From a virus (Duplodnaviria > Heunggongvirae > Uroviricota > Caudoviricetes): DNA of 34,056 nt. Shown here one piece after another: positions 3 to 16,647 of the stretch. The stretch lies in the IMG/VR virus record IMGVR_UViG_3300023184_000047, positions 1-34,056 of that record. One strand, written 5' to 3'. Position numbers and translations under genes: made by a program. How positions within the stretch are numbered: the stretch's first letter is position 1; every line of letters starts with the position of its first letter. The notes under the pieces were generated by a model that did not search any database, was not told the DNA's origin, and was given only the letters and a program-made list of their open reading frames with translations.

Positions 3-236
3 GATCATACCTATCTTATTGCTGAAGATGATCCTTTCCTCCCAAAAGCAATGGAAATGTTTTGGACAGGTATAGTCCAACTAAGAGTAATACCAGCTAC
101 AGGAGCAGAACAATTTGCTAAATTTATTTACGAAAAAGTATCTGAATTTATTAAAATAGAAACAGAAGGAAGAGTAAGAGTAGTGAGCGTAGAATTTAGA
201 GAACACGGTAAAAACTCAGCGATATATACAGAATAA
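3..236 (+). CDS. queD: QueD / 6-carboxy-5,6,7,8-tetrahydropterin synthase, 5'-truncated by the window edge
   Basis: Frame is open from base 3: DHTYLIAEDDPF...ATGAEQFAKFIY...VRVVSVEFREHGKNSAIY. The DH, T/A-E and V-x-E-x3-N-x-A-x-Y pattern is the QueD/PTPS C-terminal half; queC, queE and folE are nearby. Confidence 0.85.
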   Translation, partial: DHTYLIAEDDPFLPKAMEMFWTGIVQLRVIPATGAEQFAKFIYEKVSEFIKIETEGRVRVVSVEFREHGKNSAIYTE

Positions 237-237
237 T

Positions 238-489
238 ATGAAAAAAGTAATTAGATACACAGCATCATGGTGTGGACCATGTAAAGTATTTGCTCCTACA
301 TTTGATAAAGTAGCAGCAGAAACACCAGGAATACAATTTGAAACAGTTGATGTAGATTCAGGACATCAATCAATTACAGAATATGGTATTAGAAATGTAC
401 CTACAACTGTTGTAGTTGAAATAGATGGCACTATAAGAAAACAAAGTGGAAACATGAGTGCAGACGCATTAAAAACATTTATTGGATAA
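238..489 (+). CDS. trxA: Thioredoxin
   Basis: WCGPC active site, VDVD, and the GIRNVPT cis-Pro loop. Confidence 0.92.
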   Translation: MKKVIRYTASWCGPCKVFAPTFDKVAAETPGIQFETVDVDSGHQSITEYGIRNVPTTVVVEIDGTIRKQSGNMSADALKTFIG

Positions 490-1277
490 TGAAGATATCT
501 CACGAATTACCACTTAGCCTACTAGAATATAGTATGGGTTGGAATGATTATGAATATTGTTTACCCCACTTGCTGGACAAACATGCCGACTATAGACAGT
601 ATTTCTTAGACTCTAGAGAACGAGAGAGATTTATTATCATGGATAATGGATTATTTGAAGGAGTAACACATACTACTCAAGATTTATTAGACAAAATCAA
701 CCTTATCCAACCAGATATCTTTATTGTTCCGGATGAGTGGAATAACAAAGCAATAACTGCTAAAAATGCTAAACATTGGTTACAATATGAGTTACCTGAA
801 CGTACTAATTTAATGGTAGTAATGCAAGGTACAACTATAAGTGAGATGCATCAATTATATCAACAGTGTATCGATCTAGGTTATACCCACTTTGCATTCA
901 ATCACTCTTCAGTATTATACCATGAACTATGCCCTACAGAAAATTTAACAGCAAATCAAGCTGTTGGTAGAGTATTGCTTTTAGAGAATATGAAGAATGA
1001 AAATTTAATCAAATCACACCACTACATCCACCTACTGGGATGTTCAGTACCTCAGGAATTTACTCATTATAGAGATAACTGGGAACCTGGAATAATTGAT
1101 TCAGTCGATACTTCAAACCCAATTATATGTGGTGCTTTAGGTATTAAATATGGTGAGATTGGATTGCTAGAAAAACCATCAAATAAAATTGAAGAATTTA
1201 TGGAAAAAGATTTGGAAAAGCAATTAGAAGATATTAAATTTAATGTAGAGAGATTTAAAAGATTTTGCAACAAATAA
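489..1277 (+). CDS. TGT/DpdA-like TIM-barrel transglycosylase (putative 7-deazaguanine inserting enzyme)
   Basis: TGT-fold motifs in the expected order: IMDNGLFE, IVPDE, VVMQG, HLLG, SVDTS. Located between queD and queC. Confidence 0.7.
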   Translation: MKISHELPLSLLEYSMGWNDYEYCLPHLLDKHADYRQYFLDSRERERFIIMDNGLFEGVTHTTQDLLDKINLIQPDIFIVPDEWNNKAITAKNAKHWLQYELPERTNLMVVMQGTTISEMHQLYQQCIDLGYTHFAFNHSSVLYHELCPTENLTANQAVGRVLLLENMKNENLIKSHHYIHLLGCSVPQEFTHYRDNWEPGIIDSVDTSNPIICGALGIKYGEIGLLEKPSNKIEEFMEKDLEKQLEDIKFNVERFKRFCNK

Positions 1278-1846: not shown

Positions 1847-2764
1847 ATGTCTAAAAAACATGTTGTAGTATCCTTAAGTGGAGGAATGGACAGTAGCACA
1901 CTATTGCTTAGATGTCTAAAAGAGTATGATAGTGTAACAGCTATTTCATTTGACTATGGTCAAAAGCACAGAGTAGAGCTAGAAAGAGCTCAATCATTAG
2001 TAAATTACTTGAATGGTAATGTTGAAAAAACAGAACAAGATCAATTAGGTACAATCACAGTAGTAGGAAAAAACTACAATGAAATTAATTATCGTCAAAT
2101 CCAATTAAACGGATTAGTTGATCTATTAGATTCAGCTTTAGTAACAGGAGGTGAAGATGTACCTGAAGGTCACTATGCAGAAGATAATATGAAAGCAACA
2201 GTTGTTCCTAACAGAAACAAAATATTTGCTTCCATTACTCAAGCAGTAGCTTTATCAGTTGCAAATCGTACAGGAGAGACTTGTGATATTGCTTTAGGCA
2301 TTCATGCTGGGGATCATGCTATTTATCCGGACTGCAGACAAGAATTTAGAGATGCAGATGATGCAGCTTTTAGAATTGGAAACTGGGAAGCAGAAAGAGT
2401 AGGATACTTTACACCTTACTTAGAAGGAGATAAATTTACTATCTTACAAGACGGAGAAGTATTATGTGAAGAATTAGGATTAGATTTTGATGAAGTTTAC
2501 AGAAGAACTAATACTTCTTACAAACCAATTCAACTACTAGTAGAGGGAGTTAACAAAGTGAAGATAAACGATAAGGAAACTCGTTATGAACCTAAATTTG
2601 AATGGTTCTCAGATTATAAATCAGCTTCATCAGTTGAGAGAGTAGAAGCATTTATCAAGTTAGGAAGAAAAGATCCAGCTCCTTATGCAGACGAAACAGG
2701 ACCAGTAACATGGGAACATGTAGTAACAGAAGTAACAAAAGTATTAGAAAACCATAACAAATAA
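1847..2764 (+). CDS. queC: 7-cyano-7-deazaguanine (preQ0) synthase QueC, Zn-ligand-free type
   Basis: SLSGGMDS PP-loop, FDYGQKH, TVVPNRN, GIHAGDHAIYPDCR, C-terminal VERVEAF. Confidence 0.95.
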   Translation: MSKKHVVVSLSGGMDSSTLLLRCLKEYDSVTAISFDYGQKHRVELERAQSLVNYLNGNVEKTEQDQLGTITVVGKNYNEINYRQIQLNGLVDLLDSALVTGGEDVPEGHYAEDNMKATVVPNRNKIFASITQAVALSVANRTGETCDIALGIHAGDHAIYPDCRQEFRDADDAAFRIGNWEAERVGYFTPYLEGDKFTILQDGEVLCEELGLDFDEVYRRTNTSYKPIQLLVEGVNKVKINDKETRYEPKFEWFSDYKSASSVERVEAFIKLGRKDPAPYADETGPVTWEHVVTEVTKVLENHNK

Positions 2765-7722: not shown

Positions 7723-7748
7723 GGTTGGATATTGTCCAACCTTTTCTT
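7723..7748 (+). terminator. Intrinsic terminator ending the lysis cassette
   Basis: GGTTGGAT-ATT-GTCCAACC hairpin followed by TTTTCTT. Confidence 0.65.
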
Positions 7749-7771: not shown

Positions 7772-8545
7772 ATGAAAAGAATAGAAGATTATAATAAAAC
7801 ACTTCCCGTTGTAGAGCTTTATACAGCTGTACAATCAGAAGGAAGTAGAGCAGGTTATCCAACAGTAGTAATCAGAACAACAGGGTGTACTCACAGATGT
7901 TGGTTTGGTGAAGGTGGATGGTGCGATTCTTGGTACACAAGTATCCATCCTGAGAAAGGGCATATTAGTTTCCAAGACATTATTAACATGTACGATGCAA
8001 ATCCTCACATCACAGAGATGATGTTAACAGGAGGATCACCAACTATGCACCCAGCATTAGTAAACGAACTAACACATTTTGCACATGAAAGAAAAATATT
8101 TATCACTATTGAAACTGAAGGAAGTCATTTTCTGGAGACTGACTATCCTATTAATTTACTTTCCATATCACCTAAGTTTAGTAATTCGGTTCCTAAAATC
8201 GGAGTACTTACTCCTCAAGGAGCGGTTACGGATGAGAAAATGATTACTCAACACAACAAGTTAAGACTTAATTATGATGCCATTTCAAAATCAATCTCTT
8301 ACCATTCTGATTATCACTTAAAACCAGTATGGGATGGAGAGGATCAAGAAGCATTAGCTGAAATTATGGCTTGCATTAAAATGTTAGACATTCCAGAAGA
8401 CAAAGTATGGTTCATGCCAGCAGGAGATTCAAGAGAAGCTTTATTCAAATCATATCCAAAAATGTTTGATTGGGTAAGAGATAATGGTTATAGATTGACC
8501 TGGAGACCTCACATCATTGCATTTGAAGATCAAAGAGAAGTATAA
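7772..8545 (+). CDS. queE: 7-carboxy-7-deazaguanine synthase QueE (radical SAM)
   Basis: LYTAVQSEGSRAGYPTVVIRTTGC, CTHRC...WCDS, LTGGSP, TIETEG, SISPK. Confidence 0.9.
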   Translation: MKRIEDYNKTLPVVELYTAVQSEGSRAGYPTVVIRTTGCTHRCWFGEGGWCDSWYTSIHPEKGHISFQDIINMYDANPHITEMMLTGGSPTMHPALVNELTHFAHERKIFITIETEGSHFLETDYPINLLSISPKFSNSVPKIGVLTPQGAVTDEKMITQHNKLRLNYDAISKSISYHSDYHLKPVWDGEDQEALAEIMACIKMLDIPEDKVWFMPAGDSREALFKSYPKMFDWVRDNGYRLTWRPHIIAFEDQREV

Positions 8546-8760
8546 TGAGATTAAAAGAAGCACATATGACAGAATTTGATTTACTAAATTCACTTTGGTG
8601 GTTATGGTGTAATCAAAAAATTAGTATAGGTGATGTAAAATTCTATGTAAAAGATTTGGATCTTGAATTAGACTTTATTACATTAGACGGATATAAATTT
8701 ATAAGTACAGATAAAAAAACAACTTATTCTTATGACAGAAAACAGAAAAAAGATTCATAA
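8545..8760 (+). CDS. Hypothetical protein, 71 aa
   Basis: ORF track; TAATG coupling with queE. Confidence 0.6.
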   Translation: MRLKEAHMTEFDLLNSLWWLWCNQKISIGDVKFYVKDLDLELDFITLDGYKFISTDKKTTYSYDRKQKKDS

Positions 8761-9427
8761 CGATTTAGAAATCGTTCCTGTAGGTTATGCAAACGGTGTA
8801 GCACCAGGTTTTCCATTTACCGAAAAAGAAAAACAATCTATGATTGAAGACGCTGCTAAGGCATATGGTAAATTCTTAGATGCATTAGGGTGTGATTGGA
8901 AAAACGATCCTAATAGTGATAACACTCCAATGAGAGTAGCTAAAGCCTATGTTAATGACTTATGGAAAGGTAGATATACAGCAATGTCTGAAATTACTTC
9001 ATTTCCTTCTGATGGTTATGATGGAATCGTAATTGAAAGAAACATTCCATTAACTTCAATGTGTTCACATCACCATCAAACCATTGGAGGAGTAGTTCAT
9101 ATTGGTTATGTAGTAGGTGAAAATGGTAGAGTAATTGGTTTATCCAAATTAAACAGAATAGTGGAACTATTTGGTAGAAGAGGAGCAATACAAGAACAAT
9201 TAACTTCTGCTATTCATAATGCAGTAGATAAAATTTGTGAAAACAATAGAGGTGTAATTGTAACTGTAGTAGGTACTCACAACTGTGTTTCATGTAGAGG
9301 AGTTAGACATCAAGGTGCTTCAATGGTTACAACTAAAGCAGCAGGTGTGTTTATGGAAAATGGGAATTTAGCTCGTGAAGAGTTTTTTGATTCAATCAAA
9401 ATTAATAACGGAACACACCCAGTATAA
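8732..9427 (+). CDS. folE: GTP cyclohydrolase I
   Basis: TPMRVAK, SMCSHHH, GLSKLNRIV, QEQLT, HNCVSCRGV. Confidence 0.96.
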   Translation: MTENRKKIHNDLEIVPVGYANGVAPGFPFTEKEKQSMIEDAAKAYGKFLDALGCDWKNDPNSDNTPMRVAKAYVNDLWKGRYTAMSEITSFPSDGYDGIVIERNIPLTSMCSHHHQTIGGVVHIGYVVGENGRVIGLSKLNRIVELFGRRGAIQEQLTSAIHNAVDKICENNRGVIVTVVGTHNCVSCRGVRHQGASMVTTKAAGVFMENGNLAREEFFDSIKINNGTHPV

Positions 9428-9828
9428 TGGCTCTAACAATAAATAATAAAATCTATTTAGATTGGGATGATGTTAATGATTTAGTTAATACTCTTTGTGA
9501 AAAAATCATCATTGATCTTCCTAATATTGATTCAATTTATGGTATTAAACGAGGTGGGTTAATCCCCGCCGTATTAATATCGCATAAATTAGGTTTACCA
9601 TGGTCTGACGTGATGTTACCTAATACATTAGTTATAGATGATATTGCTGATACCGGAGAAACATTAAAGAATACAATAGGTTGCTATACAGCAGTATTGC
9701 ATTATAAACCCCATACATCATGTTATATGCCTAATTTATGGGCGTATGTGCATGAAGGAGATGAATGGATTATTTATCCATGGGAACGAAAAGATTCACA
9801 ACCAATACAAGATTATTTAAACAAATAA
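9427..9828 (+). CDS. Type I purine phosphoribosyltransferase (Gpt/XGPRT-like)
   Basis: GIKRGGLIPA, PRPP-binding LVIDDIADTGETL, WIIYPWE. Confidence 0.88.
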   Translation: MALTINNKIYLDWDDVNDLVNTLCEKIIIDLPNIDSIYGIKRGGLIPAVLISHKLGLPWSDVMLPNTLVIDDIADTGETLKNTIGCYTAVLHYKPHTSCYMPNLWAYVHEGDEWIIYPWERKDSQPIQDYLNK

Positions 9829-9831
9829 ATT

Positions 9832-10356
9832 ATGATTACAAATCCAAAAGTACCTTTTATTGACGAGGTAGAAGAATTTAACACCGTAATGGGTAAACCA
9901 AACAACTATGAATCAACAATCCCCGAAAGAAAAGAATGGGAATTTGTATACAATTTCATCCTTGAGGAATTGGAAGAATATAGAGAAGCTTGCGAAAGAG
10001 GAGACATCGTTGAGGTTCTGGATGCTTTGTGCGATATTACTTATGTTTCCCTTGGGAACGGTGCTATGTTACATGGCCTTAAGGATAAGATATGGCCAGC
10101 ATATCAAGAGGTACAAGCATCAAATATGTCAAAAGCTTGCAAAACAGAAGACGAAGCTTTACAAACTGTCATTAAGAGAACGGTCGAACAAAATGAAGCA
10201 TGTCATCATGAAAAAGTTGGAGACTATTATATCGTCTATAGAACAAGAGATAGAAAAGTAATGAAAAATATCAATTACTTTAGACCAAATTTAAAACAAT
10301 TTTTTACAGACAAAGAAATTCAAAAATCACATTTAAAACAATTAACAGGAATCTAA
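9832..10356 (+). CDS. MazG-like / PRA-PH-family nucleoside triphosphate pyrophosphohydrolase
   Basis: EVEEFN, ILEELEEY, EVLDALCDITYV, EVQASNMSK. Confidence 0.85.
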   Translation: MITNPKVPFIDEVEEFNTVMGKPNNYESTIPERKEWEFVYNFILEELEEYREACERGDIVEVLDALCDITYVSLGNGAMLHGLKDKIWPAYQEVQASNMSKACKTEDEALQTVIKRTVEQNEACHHEKVGDYYIVYRTRDRKVMKNINYFRPNLKQFFTDKEIQKSHLKQLTGI

Positions 10357-10372: not shown

Positions 10373-10687
10373 ATGACAACAGCAGTATTAATTTTAGTAG
10401 GAATAATAGCAATCGCAGCCTATCTAACACACACCCTTGACAAAAACAACGAATTACCAACAGTACAGCCTTATACAAAAGAGGAACTAGAAAACATTAA
10501 ACTTGCCGAAGAATTATACGACAAGGATTTAAGACCAGTAGTAGCTAAGAAAACCAAACCAAAACCAGCACCAGAACTTAAAGCAGTTGAACCGGAATTT
10601 ATACCAAAGGAAGCTAAATCTGAGTTCCCAATTGATAAGCCAGCAAAGAAAAAAAGAAAATATTATCCTAAAAAGAAAAAACAATAA
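10373..10687 (+). CDS. Hypothetical protein with N-terminal TM and basic tail
   Basis: ORF track; hydrophobic residues 3-17; ends KKKRKYYPKKKKQ. Confidence 0.7.
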   Translation: MTTAVLILVGIIAIAAYLTHTLDKNNELPTVQPYTKEELENIKLAEELYDKDLRPVVAKKTKPKPAPELKAVEPEFIPKEAKSEFPIDKPAKKKRKYYPKKKKQ

Positions 10688-10712: not shown

Positions 10713-11993
10713 ATGTCTGTTAAAAAGGTTTCGAAGGAACTAATATTTGTTCAAATAGCATCATATAGAGATCCTGAATTATTACCCACTATTAAAGATT
10801 GTTTAGCCAATGCTAAATATCCTGAAAATCTACGCATTTGTATTGCTTGGCAACACGCTGAAGAAGATACATGGGATAATTTAGATGATTATAAAAACGA
10901 TCCACGTTTTAAAATAATGGACATCCATTATAAAGATGCTAAAGGAGTATGTTGGGCTAGAAATAGATTACAAAGACACTATAACGGAGAAAAATACACA
11001 TTACATTTAGATTCTCATCACCGGTTCTCTAAGGACTGGGATGAGACCCTAATTAATATGCTAAAAAATCTCCAAAAGAAAGGTCATAAAAAACCACTAC
11101 TTACTGCCTATCTACCAGGATATTTCCCTAATAATGATCCTGAAGGGCGTAATAATGAAGTATGGTTTACCAATTGTGATAGATATATGCCTGAAGGGCC
11201 TATCTTTATTGCCCCTGGTCATGTACAAGATTGGGAAACTTTTAAAGAACCAATACCCGCTAGATTTTATTCAGGACATTTTGGGTTTACTTTAGGTGAA
11301 TTTACTCACGATGTACCTCACGACCCAGAACTTTATTTTCATGGGGAAGAAACATCTATATCTGCTCGAGCATTTACTCACGGATATGATTTATTTCACC
11401 CTCACATTCCTGTTATTTGGCATGAATACACTAGAGATGGAAAAAAACGCCATTGGGACGATCATCAATTTTCTCCATTAGATAAAGCTTCATTTAAAAA
11501 GTATAGAGCATTATTTGGTATAGACGGTGAAAGTAGAGAAGGTATGGATTTTGTCGGGTTTGATCTAGGAAAAGAACGTACATTAGCCGAATTTGAACGT
11601 TATATCGGAGTAGATTTTAAAGGTAAACGAATTCAAAAGCACACATCTGAACAAAAAATGCTTCCTATACCTGAAATGACAGAAGAAGAATGGGAATCAA
11701 ATTTTGTAAATCGTTTTAAATATTGTATTGATCTTTATAAACCCTCTGTACCTGATGAAGATTATGATTGTTGGGTAATAGCATTTAAAGATAAAGACGG
11801 TGTTGAGATAGCTAGAATGGATGCTGATATAAATGAAATCGCTCAAATTAAACAATCTAATCCTGGTGGTCACTTCTACAACATATGGAGAGAATTTGAC
11901 TGTTTAGAACACCCTAAAAGCTGGTTATTATGGCCACACAGCCCATCTAAAGAATGGGATCATGAAATTATACAAAATGAAATACCTTACTAA
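10713..11993 (+). CDS. Gnt1/GT60-like polypeptide GlcNAc-transferase, paralog 1
   Basis: IFVQIASYRD, GVCWARN, LDSHHRF, LTAYLP, FHGEE, WHEY. Confidence 0.85.
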   Translation: MSVKKVSKELIFVQIASYRDPELLPTIKDCLANAKYPENLRICIAWQHAEEDTWDNLDDYKNDPRFKIMDIHYKDAKGVCWARNRLQRHYNGEKYTLHLDSHHRFSKDWDETLINMLKNLQKKGHKKPLLTAYLPGYFPNNDPEGRNNEVWFTNCDRYMPEGPIFIAPGHVQDWETFKEPIPARFYSGHFGFTLGEFTHDVPHDPELYFHGEETSISARAFTHGYDLFHPHIPVIWHEYTRDGKKRHWDDHQFSPLDKASFKKYRALFGIDGESREGMDFVGFDLGKERTLAEFERYIGVDFKGKRIQKHTSEQKMLPIPEMTEEEWESNFVNRFKYCIDLYKPSVPDEDYDCWVIAFKDKDGVEIARMDADINEIAQIKQSNPGGHFYNIWREFDCLEHPKSWLLWPHSPSKEWDHEIIQNEIPY

Positions 11994-13279
11994 TGAAAAA
12001 ACCAAATAGTAGAAAAATATTTATTCATTTACCAGCATATAGAGAACCAGAATTAATTCCAACAATTAAATCGGCTTTAGAAAATGCTAAGTATCCAAAA
12101 CGTTTAGTATTTGGTATTTGTAGACAATTTAATCCTGAAGATGGGTTTGACAATATTGATGAGTATAGAGATGATAAACGTTTTAAAATTATAGATATAC
12201 CTTACGAGCAAGCTAAGGGATTACCTTATGCTCGTTATCAAATTAACACATTGTTAACTGATGAAGAATATATTTGTCAATTAGATTCACATCATAGATT
12301 TGCACAAGATTGGGACGTTACATTAATTGAAATGCACGATCAATTAAAAGCTAAAGGACATAAAAAACCTATATTAGCTGCTTATTTACCTTACTACAAT
12401 CCATTTAACGATCCTGCTGAACGTACTATGGAACCATGGCAACAAACATTTGCTTGTTTCTACCCTCACGGTACTATATTTATCCAACCTTCATTATTAC
12501 ACGGATGGGAAAATATGACTGAACCACCACCATCAAGATTCTTATCAGGGCATTTTAGCTTTGCTGATGGACATTGGGCTAAAACAGTTTTACATGATGC
12601 TGATATCTTCTTTAGCGGTGAGGAATTAAATTTAACTGTACGTTCTTATACTCACGGTTATGATATGTTCCACCCTCATAAATTAGTTATATGGCATGCT
12701 ACTATGAGAGAAGAACGTAGTGGTAAATTAGTGTGGGACGACCAATCTAAACGAGGTGAAGATTGGTGGACTCAACAAGATATCGCTAGATCTAAAATTA
12801 GACAGTTACTTCAAACCGAAGACAATGGGTTTGATTTAGGTGAATATGGTTTAGGAACAGAACGTACTTTAAGAGATTACGAAAAATATGCTGGTATACA
12901 CTTTAAAAATAGATCAGTACAAAAATATACTTTAGACCATAATTATCCTCCTAACCCATATTATTTAGATGATCAAGAATGGGAAAATTCATTTATGTTT
13001 TCCTTTTATCACTTAATCCAATTTAGTAAAGCTACATTTAAACATGATGATTATGATTTTTGGATTTGTGCCTTTGATGATGAAAATGGAGAGCCTATTT
13101 GGAGAGAAGATTACCAAGAACATCAAATCAGAAACATACTAAGTTCCCCAGGTGATTGGTATAGTGAAGAAAAATTCTTCCTAACTGAAAAAATTCCTAC
13201 TCGTTGGGTAGTTTGGGCACATAGTAAATCTCAGGGGTGGGTAGAGCGAATTGAAGAACAAGTTAATTATAAAAAATAA
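11993..13279 (+). CDS. Gnt1/GT60-like polypeptide GlcNAc-transferase, paralog 2
   Basis: IFIHLPAYRE, GLPYARY, LDSHHRF, LAAYLP, FSGEE; colinear with paralog 1. Confidence 0.85.
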   Translation: MKKPNSRKIFIHLPAYREPELIPTIKSALENAKYPKRLVFGICRQFNPEDGFDNIDEYRDDKRFKIIDIPYEQAKGLPYARYQINTLLTDEEYICQLDSHHRFAQDWDVTLIEMHDQLKAKGHKKPILAAYLPYYNPFNDPAERTMEPWQQTFACFYPHGTIFIQPSLLHGWENMTEPPPSRFLSGHFSFADGHWAKTVLHDADIFFSGEELNLTVRSYTHGYDMFHPHKLVIWHATMREERSGKLVWDDQSKRGEDWWTQQDIARSKIRQLLQTEDNGFDLGEYGLGTERTLRDYEKYAGIHFKNRSVQKYTLDHNYPPNPYYLDDQEWENSFMFSFYHLIQFSKATFKHDDYDFWICAFDDENGEPIWREDYQEHQIRNILSSPGDWYSEEKFFLTEKIPTRWVVWAHSKSQGWVERIEEQVNYKK

Positions 13280-13282
13280 ATA

Positions 13283-13981
13283 ATGGATCTAAATATATTA
13301 AAACCAAAAAATACTAATCATAAAAAAATTAGACTAGGTCCCCCAGAGGATGGGGGGTATGTAATGCCCGAAATTGTACTTGAAACTTGTACTGCTTTAT
13401 TTACATACGGAGTAGGAAATGAAATTCGATATGAATTAGAATTTGCTCAAAAATATAATAAACCTGTCCATATGTTTGATCATACAATAGGTAGAGAAAA
13501 CTATTCAATAAATGAACTTATACATTTCTATGCTGAAGGTTTAGGGTTTGAAGAAAAATGTAAAGATGTAATTGAACATTATGATGAATTAAAAATAGAA
13601 GGTGATATTTTTTTAAAAATTGATATTGAGGGCGCTGAATATGATTATTTGTTGCAAATTAATATTAAAAAAATAGCATCTTTTACAAATGGTATTAATT
13701 TAGAAATCCATTGGATAGATGATATTAATAATAGAAACAAACTTATTCAAGTATTGGATAGTTTAGCTCCTTATTTTACATTATGTCATATTCATGGAAA
13801 TAACTGGGGGGGTTTATGGCAATATAAAGGATTTGATATACCAAAAGTACTTGAATTATCCTTTATAAATAAAAAATTAGTAGAATTAGAAGAAGAAGAT
13901 AAACAAACTTACCCAATTAATGGGTTAGATGTAGCTAATAATCCTAATGTTCCTGATTATTTATTAACTTATATAAATTAA
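13283..13981 (+). CDS. FkbM/Methyltransf_22-like SAM methyltransferase
   Basis: RLGPPEDGGY, TYGVGNE, FLKIDIEGAEY, HIHGNN, ELSF. Confidence 0.8.
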   Translation: MDLNILKPKNTNHKKIRLGPPEDGGYVMPEIVLETCTALFTYGVGNEIRYELEFAQKYNKPVHMFDHTIGRENYSINELIHFYAEGLGFEEKCKDVIEHYDELKIEGDIFLKIDIEGAEYDYLLQINIKKIASFTNGINLEIHWIDDINNRNKLIQVLDSLAPYFTLCHIHGNNWGGLWQYKGFDIPKVLELSFINKKLVELEEEDKQTYPINGLDVANNPNVPDYLLTYIN

Positions 13982-14002
13982 TATTAATAAACTATAAAAA
14001 TT

Positions 14003-14812
14003 ATGAATCAAGTCGTAATAACACTTACCACTATCCCCTCTCGATTAATCCCTGAAGCTCTTGAACATGGAATTATAAGCAACATTAATTCATTGTTAAA
14101 TCAAGATTATGAAAATGAATATGAAATACATCTTAATGTACCTTCTATATTAAAACATACTGGTGAACCTTATATTATACCTGAAGAGATAAGAGAAATT
14201 GCAAATAATAATCCTAAATTTAAAATATTTGATAATCTAGAAGATTTAGGTCCTGTTACTAAATTAGCTCATACCTTAAAACGTATAACCAATCCCGAAA
14301 CAATTATAATTGTATGCGATGATGATCTAATCTACCATCCAGGTATGATAGCAGAACAAGTAAACAATCAACATAAATATCCTAATACCGCTGTAGGGTA
14401 TGATGGTTGTGGTGCCTTAGATCCTACTGTATTTGACGATGTAAGAAATCACTACGTAGTATCAATATTTAAAGATATAGAAGTAAATATGCTACAACAT
14501 TATAAAACTATATCATACAGACGTAGATTTTTTGAAGATGACTTCTTTACAGATTTTGCTCCTCACTCTTGGAATGATGATATAGCAGTATCAGCATATA
14601 TGGGTAAACAAGGGATTAAAAAATTAGTTACTCATTATACACATGAAGAGCCTTTATATACTATTGAAGAATGGAGAGCAAAAGGTGGTGTTACTACATT
14701 TCCTGTACTAGGACATACTTCTCATATTCGTGAAGAAGGATGTACATTGTATAGAGATAACCAAATAGATGACAATTACATGTACTTTCATAGAGCAGGA
14801 TATATAAGATAA
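14003..14812 (+). CDS. GT-A fold glycosyltransferase
   Basis: ITLTTIPSR, DLGPVTKL, IIVCDDD, NDD. Confidence 0.75.
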   Translation: MNQVVITLTTIPSRLIPEALEHGIISNINSLLNQDYENEYEIHLNVPSILKHTGEPYIIPEEIREIANNNPKFKIFDNLEDLGPVTKLAHTLKRITNPETIIIVCDDDLIYHPGMIAEQVNNQHKYPNTAVGYDGCGALDPTVFDDVRNHYVVSIFKDIEVNMLQHYKTISYRRRFFEDDFFTDFAPHSWNDDIAVSAYMGKQGIKKLVTHYTHEEPLYTIEEWRAKGGVTTFPVLGHTSHIREEGCTLYRDNQIDDNYMYFHRAGYIR

Positions 14813-14820
14813 TATATAAA

Positions 14821-16647
14821 ATGGGTATAATTATAAAAACAGAAGATACTGCTTTTAATTTAGAAAATATTAAATCTCAATTAAATAATCTAAACGCAGA
14901 TGAAAAAAATACTTTAATAGAGTATTTGTCTACTTCACAGTTAAACATAACAAATAATGATATAACATTAGTTACTGGACTTTGGGATATAGGTCGAGTA
15001 GGTAGAGATTTTAATCATTATATTGAACATTTTAAAAACTTCTTAGATATTCCTATGAAAATGTTTATATATGTTCCTAAAGATTTAGAGTATCTAGTTT
15101 GGGAAAAACGTTCCCGAGAAAATACACATGTTAGAATATTTGAATTAGAAGATATTAAAAATAACTTTTATGCTCCATTCTGGGATAAAACTCAAGAAAT
15201 TAGAACTAGCCCGGAATGGTTGGATCAAACTGGAGAACATGGGTGGTTACCTAATAGTCCTCAAGCATCCAATGAGTGGTATAATCCGATTGTGCAGTCA
15301 AAAATGTTTATGGTCCATGATGCTAAAGTTATGAATATATTTGATACTGACTATTTCTTATGGTTAGACGCGGGAATCAGCAATACAGTATATGACAAAT
15401 ATTTTAGTGATAATAAATGTTTAGATAAAATTACTCCATATTTAAGTACATTTTTATTTTTAAGTTATCCTTATCAAGCAAATGATGAAATCCATGGGTT
15501 TGATTTTAAAGCAATAAATAAATATGCTAGAGAAGAAGTAAAATATGTTTGTAGAGGTGGATTATTTGGAGGACATAAAGATTTCCTTTCCCAAGCCAAT
15601 GGAACCTACTACACATTACTCCAAGACACATTAAATTCAGGTTACATGGGTACTGAAGAGAGTATTTTTAGTATAATGGCACATTTAGAACCTCACATTT
15701 ATAGACGTTATGCTTTAGATGATAATGGTTTAATTGTAAAATTTATTCAAGCATTGTTAGATGATGAAGTAAAATTAGAAAATAGTAGTACCCGTGCTCA
15801 TGTTTTACCTAAAGGAACTTATACTCCACACAAAACCAAAACATCACTATATATGCTTACATTTAACTTCCCAGAACAAATAGAACATACTCTGAAAACA
15901 TGGGAAGAAAATTCAATGGATTGGCTTGAAAAACCCAGACTAATATTATTAGATAATTCAACGGATGAAGCTGCAAAAGAAGATAATAAATTAGTTGCTC
16001 ACCAATACGGGTTTGAATACATTTCATTAGAAGGAAACACAGGAATAAATGGTGGAAGATTATTTGCGGCTAAACATTTTGATGAATCTGATAGTGATTA
16101 TTATTTTTTCTTTGAAGACGATATGGGGTTAAACCCGGCAAGTGATTCGGGCTCATGTAGAAACGGATTTAAAAATCATATTCCTAATCTATATAGATAC
16201 GTTCATGAAATAATGGCTCGAGAAGATTTTGATTTTTTAAAATTATCATTTACAGAAGTATACATGGATAATAATATCCAAGTATCATGGTATAATGTAC
16301 CTCAAGAATTTAGAAGTTTCCTTTGGCCCGATTATGATCAACTACCAGTTTCTGGTCTAGACCCATATGCTCCGAGAACCAAATTTGATAAGATAGAAGT
16401 CTACAATGGGGTATCGTATATTTCGGGAGAAATTTATTATTGTAACTGGCCTATGATTGTAAGCAGAGCAGGTAATAAAAAAATGTTTTTAGATGTAGAA
16501 TGGGCACACCCATATGAACAAACATGGATGAGCTACATGTTCCAAGAAACAGTTAAAGGCAACATCAAACCAGCAGTATTATTAGCTTCTCCTGTATGGC
16601 ATAATAGAATAGTTTATTATAAACCTGAAGAAAGACGTGAGAATTAA
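14821..16647 (+). CDS. HtrL/YibB-like domain fused to a C-terminal GT-A-like domain
   Basis: TLVTGLWDIGR, QSKMFM, FLWLDAGI, GGLFGG, MGTEES; then LLDNS...GR...FFFEDD. Confidence 0.7.
   Translation: MGIIIKTEDTAFNLENIKSQLNNLNADEKNTLIEYLSTSQLNITNNDITLVTGLWDIGRVGRDFNHYIEHFKNFLDIPMKMFIYVPKDLEYLVWEKRSRENTHVRIFELEDIKNNFYAPFWDKTQEIRTSPEWLDQTGEHGWLPNSPQASNEWYNPIVQSKMFMVHDAKVMNIFDTDYFLWLDAGISNTVYDKYFSDNKCLDKITPYLSTFLFLSYPYQANDEIHGFDFKAINKYAREEVKYVCRGGLFGGHKDFLSQANGTYYTLLQDTLNSGYMGTEESIFSIMAHLEPHIYRRYALDDNGLIVKFIQALLDDEVKLENSSTRAHVLPKGTYTPHKTKTSLYMLTFNFPEQIEHTLKTWEENSMDWLEKPRLILLDNSTDEAAKEDNKLVAHQYGFEYISLEGNTGINGGRLFAAKHFDESDSDYYFFFEDDMGLNPASDSGSCRNGFKNHIPNLYRYVHEIMAREDFDFLKLSFTEVYMDNNIQVSWYNVPQEFRSFLWPDYDQLPVSGLDPYAPRTKFDKIEVYNGVSYISGEIYYCNWPMIVSRAGNKKMFLDVEWAHPYEQTWMSYMFQETVKGNIKPAVLLASPVWHNRIVYYKPEERREN

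What the first reader, a model, noticed from the sequence alone, without database searches (positions are those of the whole stretch)
8732..10356. folE - phosphoribosyltransferase - MazG-like: hint of a nucleotide-pool route to deazaguanine DNA
Seen: a guanine/xanthine-type PRTase is coupled (TAATG) to folE and followed by a MazG-like pyrophosphatase. Established: PRTases convert free bases to NMPs, and Z-genome phages pair a base-synthesis enzyme with MazG-like (MazZ) and other pool-editing hydrolases. Inference, option 1: the PRTase makes preQ0/CDG nucleotide for direct incorporation while the MazG-like enzyme depletes dGTP. Option 2: the PRTase recycles guanine released by the DpdA-like exchange while the MazG-like enzyme sanitises the pool. 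Either would be an extension of the known pathway.
Basis: partly seen in the sequence, partly recalled or inferred. Interest (0 to 1): 0.7.

Follow-up and report, generated by a model that had tools for sequence, protein, structure and literature searches.

The report
Guanine-salvage enzyme in phage deazaguanine operon
A lake-water Flavobacterium-type phage that swaps the guanine in its DNA for a 7-deazaguanine keeps a stripped-down purine-salvage enzyme welded to the pathway's first gene; it most likely recycles the expelled guanine into new modified base, while the neighbouring MazG-like enzyme looks like a general nucleotide-pool cleaner.

Summary
FolE (8732-9427), a 133-aa type-I purine phosphoribosyltransferase (PRTase, 9427-9828, TAATG overlap) and an all-alpha MazG-like pyrophosphohydrolase (9832-10356) form one tight operon with QueE. 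DpdA3, QueC and QueD lie elsewhere in the window.

The PRTase link to the pathway is not chance:
- Relatives occur in about 35 of 50,697 phage records, nearly all with que genes.
- These include all three groups shown to replace 100% of G (immuto, phiST, CP220-type).
- 36 of 37 cellular relatives lie away from que genes.
- In sister contigs the mini-PRTase is replaced, mutually exclusively (41 vs 22, none with both), by a classical Hpt-type HGPRT, and FolE sometimes by FolE2.
- Other phages fuse the PRTase to FolE.

The conserved pair is therefore "6-oxopurine PRTase + GTP cyclohydrolase". Option 1 (a preQ0/CDG nucleotide) is disfavoured but not excluded.

The MazG-like protein is catalytically intact and resembles the dUTPase DR2231. 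Its family also occurs in phages without que genes, so a dGTP-depleting role is unsupported.

This scan's earlier agents noted the PRTase pairing on other DNA. I found no paper describing it.

The parts
3..236 (+). QueD (CPH4 synthase), 5' end cut by the contig start
   Evidence: PF01242, E 4.7e-06; 83% identical to immuto QueD
238..489 (+). Thioredoxin, between QueD and DpdA3, stop/start overlapping DpdA3
   Evidence: PF00085, E 5e-17; a homologue lies in 33 of 80 PRTase-centred viral loci
489..1277 (+). DpdA3-type 7-deazaguanine transglycosylase
   Evidence: 32-33% identity to immuto and CP220 DpdA3 (E 1e-35), 21% to phiST DpdA3; phrog_19058, E 6.6e-34; the Pfam TGT model misses it
1847..2764 (+). 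QueC (preQ0 synthase), 305 aa with a C-terminal extension
   Evidence: PF06508, E 1.8e-34; TIGR00364
7723..7741 (+). Terminator-like hairpin plus T run that closes the lysis module ahead of the QueE operon
7772..8545 (+). QueE (CDG synthase, radical SAM)
   Evidence: phrog_2076, E 5.5e-54; TIGR03365
8545..8760 (+). 71-aa ORF of unknown function, TAATG-coupled to QueE and overlapping the FolE start
   Evidence: no family match
8732..9427 (+). FolE, GTP cyclohydrolase I
   Evidence: PF01227, E 5.8e-42; 62% identical to phiST FolE
9427..9828 (+). Loop-less mini 6-oxopurine phosphoribosyltransferase (XGPRT / archaeal HGXPRT type)
   Evidence: The PPi loop R42-G43-G44, PRPP motif D71-D72-I-A-D75-T-G-E-T79, O6-type K94, stacking W114 and P118-W119-E120 are conserved. 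The 22-28 residue flexible-loop hairpin of 1vdm and E. coli Gpt is absent.
9832..10356 (+). DR2231-like all-alpha (MazG/HisE superfamily) NTP pyrophosphohydrolase with a C-terminal alpha/beta extension
   Evidence: PF01503; phrog_671; invariant E45-E46-x-x-E49 ... E61-x-x-D64 ... D68; model pLDDT 91.2; only convincing PDB match is DR2231, E 1.7e-4, TM 0.56-0.60

Best explanation
The window carries a DpdA3-type 7-deazaguanine DNA-modification system, predicted to give dPreQ0 because no QueF was found. Within it, QueE-orf71-FolE-PRTase-MazG is one translationally coupled operon. The 133-aa PRTase is an active 6-oxopurine phosphoribosyltransferase that uses PRPP to turn free guanine into GMP. That guanine includes what DpdA3 expels from phage DNA at every exchanged position. 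Host kinases, or the phage's P-loop kinase, then raise GMP to GTP, which FolE feeds back into preQ0 synthesis. This closes a guanine to 7-deazaguanine conversion loop, removes the poorly soluble exchange product and halves the net purine cost of complete replacement. The MazG-like protein is a competent NTP pyrophosphohydrolase of the DR2231 kind that edits the (d)NTP pool. dUTP is the most likely substrate, since the record shows no trimeric dUTPase. It is not a dedicated step of the pathway. Shown here: gene identities, conserved catalytic motifs, folds, co-occurrence, displacement and fusion patterns. Inferred: the substrates of both enzymes and the loop itself.
For: 1) Specific linkage.
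- tblastn of the window PRTase and of the F379 PRTase on 50,697 phage records finds about 35 records: immuto, the phiST group, all 11 Firehammervirus phages, Stenotrophomonas/Pseudomonas/Variovorax 42-kb phages, Brevundimonas phages, cyanophage BUCT-ZZ01 and two faecal contigs.
- FolE occurs in only 405 of 50,697 records.
- que genes were confirmed in the same record or operon for 7 of 8 lineages.
- Of the 80 best IMG/VR PRTase loci, 64 hold FolE, 50 QueE, 43 QueC and 37 DpdA3 within 10 kb; most negatives are cut contigs.
- Only 1 of 37 cellular loci with relatives has que genes, and that one looks phage-derived.

2) Non-orthologous displacement.
- Among 64 MazG-centred sister loci, 41 have the mini-PRTase, 22 have a classical Hpt-type HGPRT (E. 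coli/Salmonella Hpt, E 1e-24; catalytic Asp and Lys intact), none has both and one has neither.
- The Hpt gene abuts FolE within 3 nt. In the L169 type it abuts FolE2, which replaces FolE (PF02649).

3) Fusion and adjacency to GTP cyclohydrolase in unrelated phages.
- PRTase-FolE fusion in Stenotrophomonas/Variovorax phages.
- FolE-PRTase in Brevundimonas; PRTase-FolE in immuto.

4) Several separate recruitments. The Brevundimonas PRTase groups with proteobacterial genes and the cyanophage one with Actinomarina genes (moderate support).

5) Classical HGPRT is reported not to take 7-deazaguanines, because N7 is a recognition element (PMC8136771).

6) Residues for PRPP, O6, the 2-amino face and base stacking are invariant.

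7) PRTase is present in all Firehammervirus phages (dADG, DpdA3) and was not found in the related dI-containing Fletcherviruses.

8) MazG-like protein.
- Metal-binding motif intact; DR2231 fold.
- No PF00692 dUTPase in the 118-kb record.
- Family present in PTm1, CBB and LR745206, which lack FolE and QueD.
Against: - No substrate was measured.
- TubE, a proven CDG-specific PRTase, is aligned by its authors with 4Z1O, the same PDB family as this protein's top matches. A 7-deazapurine substrate is therefore chemically precedented in this family.
- HGPRT does accept allopurinol, which lacks N7 (my own knowledge), so the N7 argument is not absolute.
- The missing flexible loop could mean altered or weak catalysis.
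- Hosts already have Gpt/Hpt, so the need for a phage copy is inferred from the scale of exchange only.
- Hutinet et al. cite detection of ADG nucleoside in the cytoplasm of CP220-infected cells. That fits a nucleotide route better.
- DpdA3 is flanked by a P-loop kinase and an NTP hydrolase in three lineages (immuto, phiST, CP220). A purely post-replicative model does not require these.
- In this phage lineage the MazG gene is glued to FolE in 61 of 64 loci, and phiST has an unrelated MazG-type gene next to FolE. A pathway-specific MazG role therefore cannot be dismissed.
Confidence: 0.5

Rival explanations
1. Reader's option 1. The PRTase condenses a 7-deazaguanine base (CDG, preQ0 or preQ1) with PRPP. 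The ribonucleotide is phosphorylated, reduced and incorporated by the phage polymerase, while the MazG-like enzyme destroys dGTP. Replacement is pre-replicative and DpdA3 only mops up.
For: - TubE is a CDG-specific PRTase of the same structural family.
- The PRTase is present in all three phage groups with 100% replacement and did not appear in partial-replacement phages such as 9g, CAjan, Seurat or iggy.
- Kinase and NTP hydrolase genes flank DpdA3 in immuto, phiST and CP220.
- Hutinet et al. cite detection of ADG nucleoside in infected cells.
- DpdA3 activity could not be shown in E. coli.
Against: - A classical Hpt-type HGPRT substitutes for the mini-PRTase, mutually exclusively. HGPRT is reported not to accept 7-deazaguanines.
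- The PRTase is coupled or fused to the first enzyme (FolE or FolE2), not the last.
- The invariant Asp75 aligns with the N7-contacting Asp of XGPRT/HGPRT.
- Every PRTase phage lineage whose cluster was read through here also has a DpdA. The final base differs between lineages while the PRTase stays.
- No RNR was found in the 118-kb record.
- The MazG family is not que-specific.
Confidence: 0.17
2. Nucleotide-level exchange, on the logic of T4 hmC and Z genomes. The MazG-like enzyme converts dGTP to dGMP. DpdA3 swaps the base on the free nucleotide. A P-loop kinase re-phosphorylates the product. The PRTase recycles the released guanine.
For: - It explains all accessory genes at once. An NTP hydrolase (MazG in immuto and phiST, HD domain in CP220) and a P-loop kinase sit beside DpdA3 in three lineages.
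- The CP220 and immuto kinases are homologous (32% identity).
- Guanine as the PRTase substrate agrees with the Hpt displacement.
- DpdA3 was inactive in the E. coli DNA-modification assay.
Against: - No TGT-family enzyme is known to act on free nucleotides.
- In the window the kinase homologue lies 100 kb away, next to packaging genes.
- The nearest solved relative of the MazG-like protein was crystallised with dUTP analogues.
- DpdA3 net charge does not distinguish it from other DpdAs.
- Stenotrophomonas-type clusters have the PRTase with neither MazG nor a kinase nearby.
Confidence: 0.13
3. No pathway link. The PRTase is a general auxiliary purine-salvage gene and the MazG-like gene a general dUTPase. 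They sit beside FolE only through inherited synteny.
For: Phages often carry nucleotide-metabolism genes. The MazG family occurs in que-less jumbo phages next to RNR and DHFR. The 160 IMG/VR loci are mostly one phage group.
Against: XGPRT-like PRTases are rare in phages and almost confined to que-bearing ones in at least 7 lineages. They are fused to FolE in one lineage. Hpt and FolE2 displacements keep the pairing. Cellular relatives are not que-linked.
Confidence: 0.08

Closest known systems
[quoted passage not shown]
   Same: Closest cultured relative: 89.5% nt identity over part of the region. It has the same DpdA3, QueC/D/E, FolE, PRTase (59% aa identity) and MazG-like (86%) genes. Its DNA has all G replaced.
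   Different: The window record shows no QueF, DpdN or cluster-linked kinase, so dPreQ0 rather than fdPreQ1 is predicted. Gene order differs (FolE-PRT here, PRT-FolE there) and the cluster is split by RNA genes and a lysis module. The paper does not mention the PRTase (0 occurrences of 'phosphoribosyl').
E. coli XGPRT (Gpt; 1a95/1nul/4jls) and archaeal 6-oxopurine PRTases (P. horikoshii PH0095 1vdm; S. solfataricus HGXPRT 4z1o/4zfn)
   Same: Same fold (TM 0.71-0.75). Same PPi loop, PRPP motif, catalytic Asp, Lys, stacking Trp and PW-acidic motif.
   Different: It lacks the 22-28 residue flexible-loop hairpin. It scores 43 bits against the 138-bit cut-off of the NCBIfam XPRT equivalog. It is encoded in a DNA-modification operon, not as a housekeeping gene.
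TubE / ToyH, PRPP-dependent 7-deazaguanine PRTases of tubercidin and toyocamycin biosynthesis (PMC6112128)
   Same: A PRTase encoded beside FolE/QueD/QueE homologues. TubE is aligned by its authors with 4Z1O, this protein's PDB family.
   Different: TubE is 194 aa and works with a UbiD decarboxylase, a GMP-reductase-like enzyme and a Nudix hydrolase to make a free nucleoside. None of those is here, and a DpdA is present instead. No direct sequence comparison was possible.
DR2231 of Deinococcus radiodurans (MazG-like all-alpha NTP pyrophosphohydrolase, solved with dUMPNPP/dUMP)
   Same: It is the only convincing structural match (E 1.7e-4, TM 0.56-0.60). The acidic metal-binding motif is the same.
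   Different: Identity is 16-22%. The phage protein has an extra C-terminal alpha/beta module (residues ~100-160) shared with jumbo-phage proteins.
Pool-editing enzymes of base-replacing phages: MazZ/DatZ/PurZ (Z genomes), T4 gp56 dCTPase / gp42 / gp1
   Same: An NTP hydrolase, and in relatives a nucleotide kinase, are encoded beside the base-making enzymes of a phage that replaces one base completely.
   Different: No sequence relation to a solved MazZ-type chain was found. There is no PurZ or hydroxymethylase analogue. A DNA transglycosylase homologue is present, which those systems lack.

Membership tests
Type I phosphoribosyltransferase (PF00156) | PRPP-binding acidic motif followed by D-T/S-G-x-T, and a PPi loop | tested here: met
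   V-I-D71-D72-I-A-D75-T-G-E-T79 and R42-G43-G44 are invariant or nearly so in 45 relatives. Pfam score is 27.6 bits against a cut-off of 26.3.
Type I phosphoribosyltransferase (PF00156) | Rossmann-like PRT core fold | tested here: met
   AlphaFold model pLDDT 91.3; Foldseek probability 1.0 to 1vdm, 4z1o and E. coli XGPRT.
Xanthine-guanine PRTase Gpt (NCBIfam NF006613 equivalog) | Score above the curated equivalog cut-off | tested here: not met
   43.1 bits against a cut-off of 138.
Xanthine-guanine PRTase Gpt (NCBIfam NF006613 equivalog) | Flexible catalytic loop between the second helix and the PRPP strand | tested here: not met
   Only 6 residues (S60-P65) where 1vdm and E. coli Gpt have about 27-28. 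The region is short or absent across the phage clade.
6-oxopurine PRTases in general | Residues for O6 (Lys), the N7-side Asp, a stacking aromatic and an acidic residue for the 2-amino/N1 face | tested here: met
   K94, D75, W114 and E120 are conserved. Positions were assigned by alignment to 1vdm and E. coli XGPRT; the roles come from my knowledge of XGPRT/HGPRT structures.
6-oxopurine PRTases in general | Activity on guanine, hypoxanthine or xanthine | not testable with these tools
   This needs an enzyme assay.
TubE/ToyH 7-deazaguanine PRTases | Sequence clustering with TubE/ToyH and CDG/preQ0 specificity | not testable with these tools
   No TubE or ToyH sequence was reachable. The only known link is that TubE is aligned with 4Z1O in its paper's Figure S2.
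TubE/ToyH 7-deazaguanine PRTases | Companion tailoring genes (UbiD decarboxylase, GMP-reductase-like, phosphatase) | tested here: not met
   None appears among the Pfam results for the window ORFs.
All-alpha NTP pyrophosphohydrolase superfamily (MazG/HisE/dimeric dUTPase) | E-x-x-E ... E-x-x-D metal-binding motif on a four-helix core | tested here: met
   E45, E46, E49, D64 and D68 are invariant and E61 is conserved in at least 90% of 27 sequences; helical core in the model; PF01503 35.5 bits against 21.3; DR2231 match.
MazZ-type (d)GTP pyrophosphohydrolase of Z-genome phages | Sequence relation to MazZ and co-occurrence with PurZ | tested here: inconclusive
   No PDB chain matched by sequence at E <= 1 apart from an unrelated YhbY protein. 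The fold search returned only DR2231 and weak HisE/iMazG matches. PurZ was not searched for. Substrate is unknown.
DpdA3-type phage 7-deazaguanine system (Hutinet 2023) | DpdA3 homologue plus FolE, QueD, QueE (with or without QueC) in one genome | tested here: met
DpdA3-type phage 7-deazaguanine system (Hutinet 2023) | Complete replacement of G in virion DNA | not testable with these tools
   The phage is uncultured. This was shown only for the relatives immuto, phiST and CP220.

The most novel reading that the evidence does not exclude
The NTP hydrolase, the PRTase and the P-loop kinase that travel with DpdA3 mark a pre-replicative route. dGTP is cut to dGMP. DpdA3 exchanges the base on the free nucleotide rather than on DNA. 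The kinase rebuilds the triphosphate, and the PRTase recycles the guanine. Complete replacement would then be achieved in the pool, against the published post-replicative model.
Probability: 0.13. Interest if true: 0.9.

Novelty: new variant of a known kind. Interest (0 to 1): 0.6.

Why it matters
Phages that replace every guanine with a 7-deazaguanine are currently explained by one enzyme, DpdA3, acting after replication. Its activity has not been reconstituted. A purine PRTase that is fused or coupled to GTP cyclohydrolase in at least seven phage lineages, including all three with proven 100% replacement, points to an unrecognised helper step. It may also explain why DpdA3 systems failed in E. 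coli assays that lacked these helpers. The PRTase is also a practical marker for predicting heavily modified phage DNA, which resists restriction enzymes and complicates sequencing. The question of whether the helper genes indicate pool-level chemistry becomes directly testable with a few enzyme assays.

Tried and rejected
- Crippen et al. 2019 (PMC6854489) could not be read. The claim about ADG nucleoside in infected cells rests on Hutinet's citation only.
- TubE and ToyH sequences could not be obtained. The genome-contig scan with the PRTase profile returned CPR, DPANN, Thermoproteota and Sulfurimonas genes but no Streptomyces, so no joint tree or pocket comparison was made.
- The PRTase tree is poorly resolved: 148 columns, with long branches for F379, the Stenotrophomonas fusion and phiST. 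I use it only for the placements of the Brevundimonas and cyanophage genes, at moderate support.
- A Foldseek search of AlphaFold/Swiss-Prot with the MazG model gave nothing below E 0.6.
- Net charge and pI of DpdA3 compared with other DpdAs do not discriminate between DNA-level and nucleotide-level action.
- The sigma-70 promoter scan found fewer sites than shuffles and is not suited to Bacteroidota promoters.
- A search for the mini-PRTase elsewhere in five 'PRTase-less' sister genomes found only a PRPP-motif match. This turned out to be the Hpt-type gene.
- I rejected the idea that the PRTase is a degenerate, inactive domain, because all PRPP and base-contact motifs are invariant across 45 diverse sequences.
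- Complex prediction for FolE with the PRTase was not run, because the report does not rest on the two proteins binding.
Full report
**What is there**

The window is the first 34 kb of a 117,779-bp IMG/VR virus record, estimated 71% complete. [quoted passage not shown]

The coordinates of the finding are correct:
- FolE lies at 8732-9427 (PF01227, E 5.8e-42).
- A 133-aa type-I phosphoribosyltransferase (PRTase) lies at 9427-9828 (PF00156).
- A 174-aa all-alpha NTP pyrophosphohydrolase lies at 9832-10356 (PF01503).

The FolE stop and the PRTase start share a base (TAATG, 9425-9429). The MazG-like gene starts 3 nt after the PRTase stop. Upstream, QueE (7772-8545) is joined by a second TAATG to a 71-aa ORF that overlaps the FolE start. 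A terminator-like hairpin at 7723-7741 separates this block from the holin gene. QueE-orf71-FolE-PRTase-MazG therefore reads as one operon.

The rest of the pathway lies at the window's start:
- QueD (3-236, cut by the contig end).
- Thioredoxin (238-489).
- A 262-aa protein (489-1277).
- QueC (1847-2764).

The 262-aa protein is 32-33% identical to the DpdA3 proteins of immuto and Campylobacter phage CP220, and 21% to that of phiST. No QueF or DpdN homologue was found in the record. The predicted DNA base is therefore dPreQ0. Immuto, by contrast, carries fdPreQ1 in place of all G (Hutinet et al. 2023).

**The PRTase itself**

Its best sequence and structure matches are all 6-oxopurine PRTases:
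- P. horikoshii PH0095 (1vdm).
- S. solfataricus HGXPRT (4z1o/4zfn/5bqo).
- E. coli and Yersinia XGPRT (model pLDDT 91.3).

Several residues are invariant or nearly so in 45 diverse viral relatives. They are the PPi loop (R42-G43-G44), the PRPP motif (D71-D72-x-x-D75-T-G-x-T79), a Lys at the O6 position (K94), the stacking Trp (W114) and the P-W-E120 motif.

The flexible catalytic loop is missing. Six residues stand where 1vdm and E. coli Gpt have about 27. The protein also scores far below the NCBIfam XPRT equivalog cut-off (43 against 138 bits). It works like a Gpt but is not an orthodox member of that family.

**Is the linkage to que genes real?**

Yes.

In 50,697 phage records, relatives of this PRTase occur in about 35:
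- The immuto phages.
- The phiST group of Cellulophaga phages.
- All 11 Firehammervirus (CP220-like) Campylobacter phages.
- 42-kb Stenotrophomonas, Pseudomonas and Variovorax phages.
- Two Brevundimonas phages.
- Cyanophage BUCT-ZZ01.
- Two faecal contigs.

FolE occurs in only 405 of 50,697 records.

I confirmed que genes in the same operon or record for seven of the eight lineages. Only the faecal contig MT835497 lacks them.

The three phage groups with experimentally complete G replacement (immuto, phiST, CP220) all carry the PRTase. The well-studied partial-replacement phages (Seurat-like, iggy and others, which do appear in the FolE list) were not hit. Within the Eucampyvirinae, the dADG-containing Firehammerviruses have both DpdA3 and the PRTase. 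The deoxyinosine-containing Fletcherviruses were not hit by either query.

In IMG/VR at least 466 contigs encode relatives. Of the best 80 loci, 64 have FolE, 50 QueE, 43 QueC and 37 DpdA3 within 10 kb. Most of the negatives are truncated contigs.

As a control I looked at 37 cellular loci encoding relatives, from CPR bacteria, DPANN and Thermoproteota archaea, Sulfurimonas and others. They lack que neighbours in 36 cases. The exception is a Lachnospiraceae MAG contig with a full phage-like cluster.

Four observations favour guanine as the substrate.

(i) Non-orthologous displacement. I centred a second set of IMG/VR loci on the MazG gene. Among the 64 loci with enough upstream sequence, the counts were:
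- 41 carry the mini-PRTase.
- 22 carry a classical Hpt-type HGPRT instead.
- None carries both.
- One carries neither.

The Hpt-type protein has 170 aa, matches E. coli and Salmonella Hpt at E about 1e-24, and keeps the catalytic Asp, the Lys and the GYG-D motif. The Hpt gene abuts FolE within 3 nt. The same clusters still hold DpdA3, QueC, QueD and QueE.

(ii) In some of these contigs FolE itself is replaced by the unrelated FolE2 (PF02649, E 4.7e-65). FolE2 is still stop/start-coupled to the Hpt gene. What is conserved is therefore the activity pair "6-oxopurine PRTase + GTP cyclohydrolase I", not any particular gene.

(iii) Unrelated phages show the same pairing:
- A PRTase-FolE fusion protein in Stenotrophomonas and Variovorax phages.
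- FolE-PRTase in Brevundimonas, beside RNR and a dNMP kinase.
- PRTase-FolE in immuto.
- QueE-PRTase-x-QueD-FolE in the cyanophage.

(iv) The PRTases seem to have been recruited more than once. The Brevundimonas gene groups with proteobacterial genes and the cyanophage gene with Actinomarina genes (moderate support).

Repeated recruitment of ordinary purine-salvage enzymes, each wired to the GTP-consuming first step, is most simply read as supply of GTP from free guanine. Classical HGPRT is reported not to accept 7-deazaguanines, because N7 is a recognition element (PMC8136771). A DpdA that exchanges every G releases one guanine per site. Converting it to GMP removes the product and repays the GTP spent on each preQ0.

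**Why option 1 is not dead**

- TubE of the tubercidin pathway is a biochemically proven CDG-specific PRTase. Its authors align it with 4Z1O, the same family as this protein's best matches.
- HGPRT does accept allopurinol, which lacks N7 (my own knowledge).
- Hutinet et al. cite detection of ADG nucleoside in the cytoplasm of CP220-infected cells. They also report that DpdA3 could not be made to work in E. coli.
- DpdA3 is flanked by a P-loop kinase and an NTP hydrolase in three lineages:
  - immuto: MazG-x-DpdA3-x-DpdN-kinase.
  - phiST: FolE-MazG(PF03819)-DpdL-AAA_18-DpdA3.
  - CP220: HD+P-loop, then DpdA3, then kinase.
- The CP220 and immuto kinases are homologous.

A purely post-replicative model does not need these genes. 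A nucleotide-level exchange, in which the PRTase still recycles guanine, would use them all. I rate that reading at about 0.13.

**The MazG-like protein**

The metal-binding motif E45-E46-x-x-E49 ... E61-x-x-D64 ... D68 is conserved throughout the 27 sequences; E61 is conserved in at least 90% of them and the other five are invariant. The protein is more conserved than the PRTase across the same loci (56-84% against 30-83% identity).

Its model (pLDDT 91.2) matches only DR2231 of Deinococcus convincingly (E 1.7e-4, TM 0.56-0.60). DR2231 is a MazG-like enzyme solved with dUTP analogues. Swiss-Prot models gave nothing.

No trimeric dUTPase gene is present in the 118 kb held.

In this phage lineage the gene sits next to FolE in 61 of 64 loci. 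The next relatives, however, lie in genomes with neither FolE nor QueD. These are Tenacibaculum phage PTm1, Pectobacterium phage CBB (where the gene lies near RNR-beta and DHFR) and a 635-kb megaphage. The family is therefore a general pool enzyme. A dGTP-depleting role, as with MazZ or DatZ, is possible but unsupported.

**Comparison with what is known**

The key paper on these systems (PMC10516641) never mentions a PRTase or PRPP. No paper in the library links DpdA with a phosphoribosyltransferase in phages. One GenBank annotator labelled the F379 gene 'purine phosphoribosyltransferase / queuosine biosynthesis protein'.

Earlier agents of this scan noted the PRTase pairing, the loop-less form and the FolE fusion on other DNA. 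I re-tested those points here. The look-ups I made did not show the Hpt and FolE2 displacement.

**Verdict**

Option 2 is favoured for the PRTase. The MazG role remains open and is probably ordinary.
- This is a known system with an undescribed, conserved helper step.

Noticed in passing
L215:1249-1761 (IMG/VR sister contig); also L167-L212 set: A classical Hpt-type HGPRT replaces the mini XGPRT-like PRTase next to FolE in 22 of 64 sister loci. The two types never occur together.
   Followed up: yes
L169:8698-9663: FolE is replaced by FolE2 (PF02649) in some sister contigs. FolE2 is still stop/start-coupled to the Hpt-type PRTase.
   Followed up: partly
window 238-489: A thioredoxin gene is wedged between QueD and DpdA3 with overlapping stop/start. 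A homologue is present in 33 of 80 related loci. Its role in the pathway is unexplained.
   Followed up: no
window 1847-2764: QueC is 305 aa, about 80 aa longer than the Pfam QueC core (residues 6-226). The extension is shared with immuto QueC.
   Followed up: no
window 10713-16647: Four glycosyltransferase genes (two PF11397 GlcNAc-type paralogues, a GT2, and an HtrL+GT2) and an FkbM-type methyltransferase follow the operon, just before PolB. Whether they decorate DNA, virion or host is open.
   Followed up: no
window 10373-10687: A 104-aa ORF directly after the MazG-like gene has a hydrophobic N-terminus and a Lys/Pro-rich tail. It matches no family.
   Followed up: no
G000:C1:111001-111531 (outside the window): A P-loop (AAA_28/TMPK-like) kinase is homologous to the kinases that flank DpdA3 in CP220 and immuto. 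Here it lies far from the cluster, near a 527-aa ORF I took, without a family search, for a packaging gene.
   Followed up: partly
L095:13543-14574 (Campylobacter phage CP220 gp055): An HD-domain phosphohydrolase fused to a P-loop kinase-like domain lies directly upstream of DpdA3, with a second kinase downstream. It is a possible dNTP-pool enzyme of the dADG system.
   Followed up: partly
whole record G000: No trimeric dUTPase (PF00692) and no RNR large subunit (PF02867) were found in the 118 kb held. The record is about 71% complete.
   Followed up: partly
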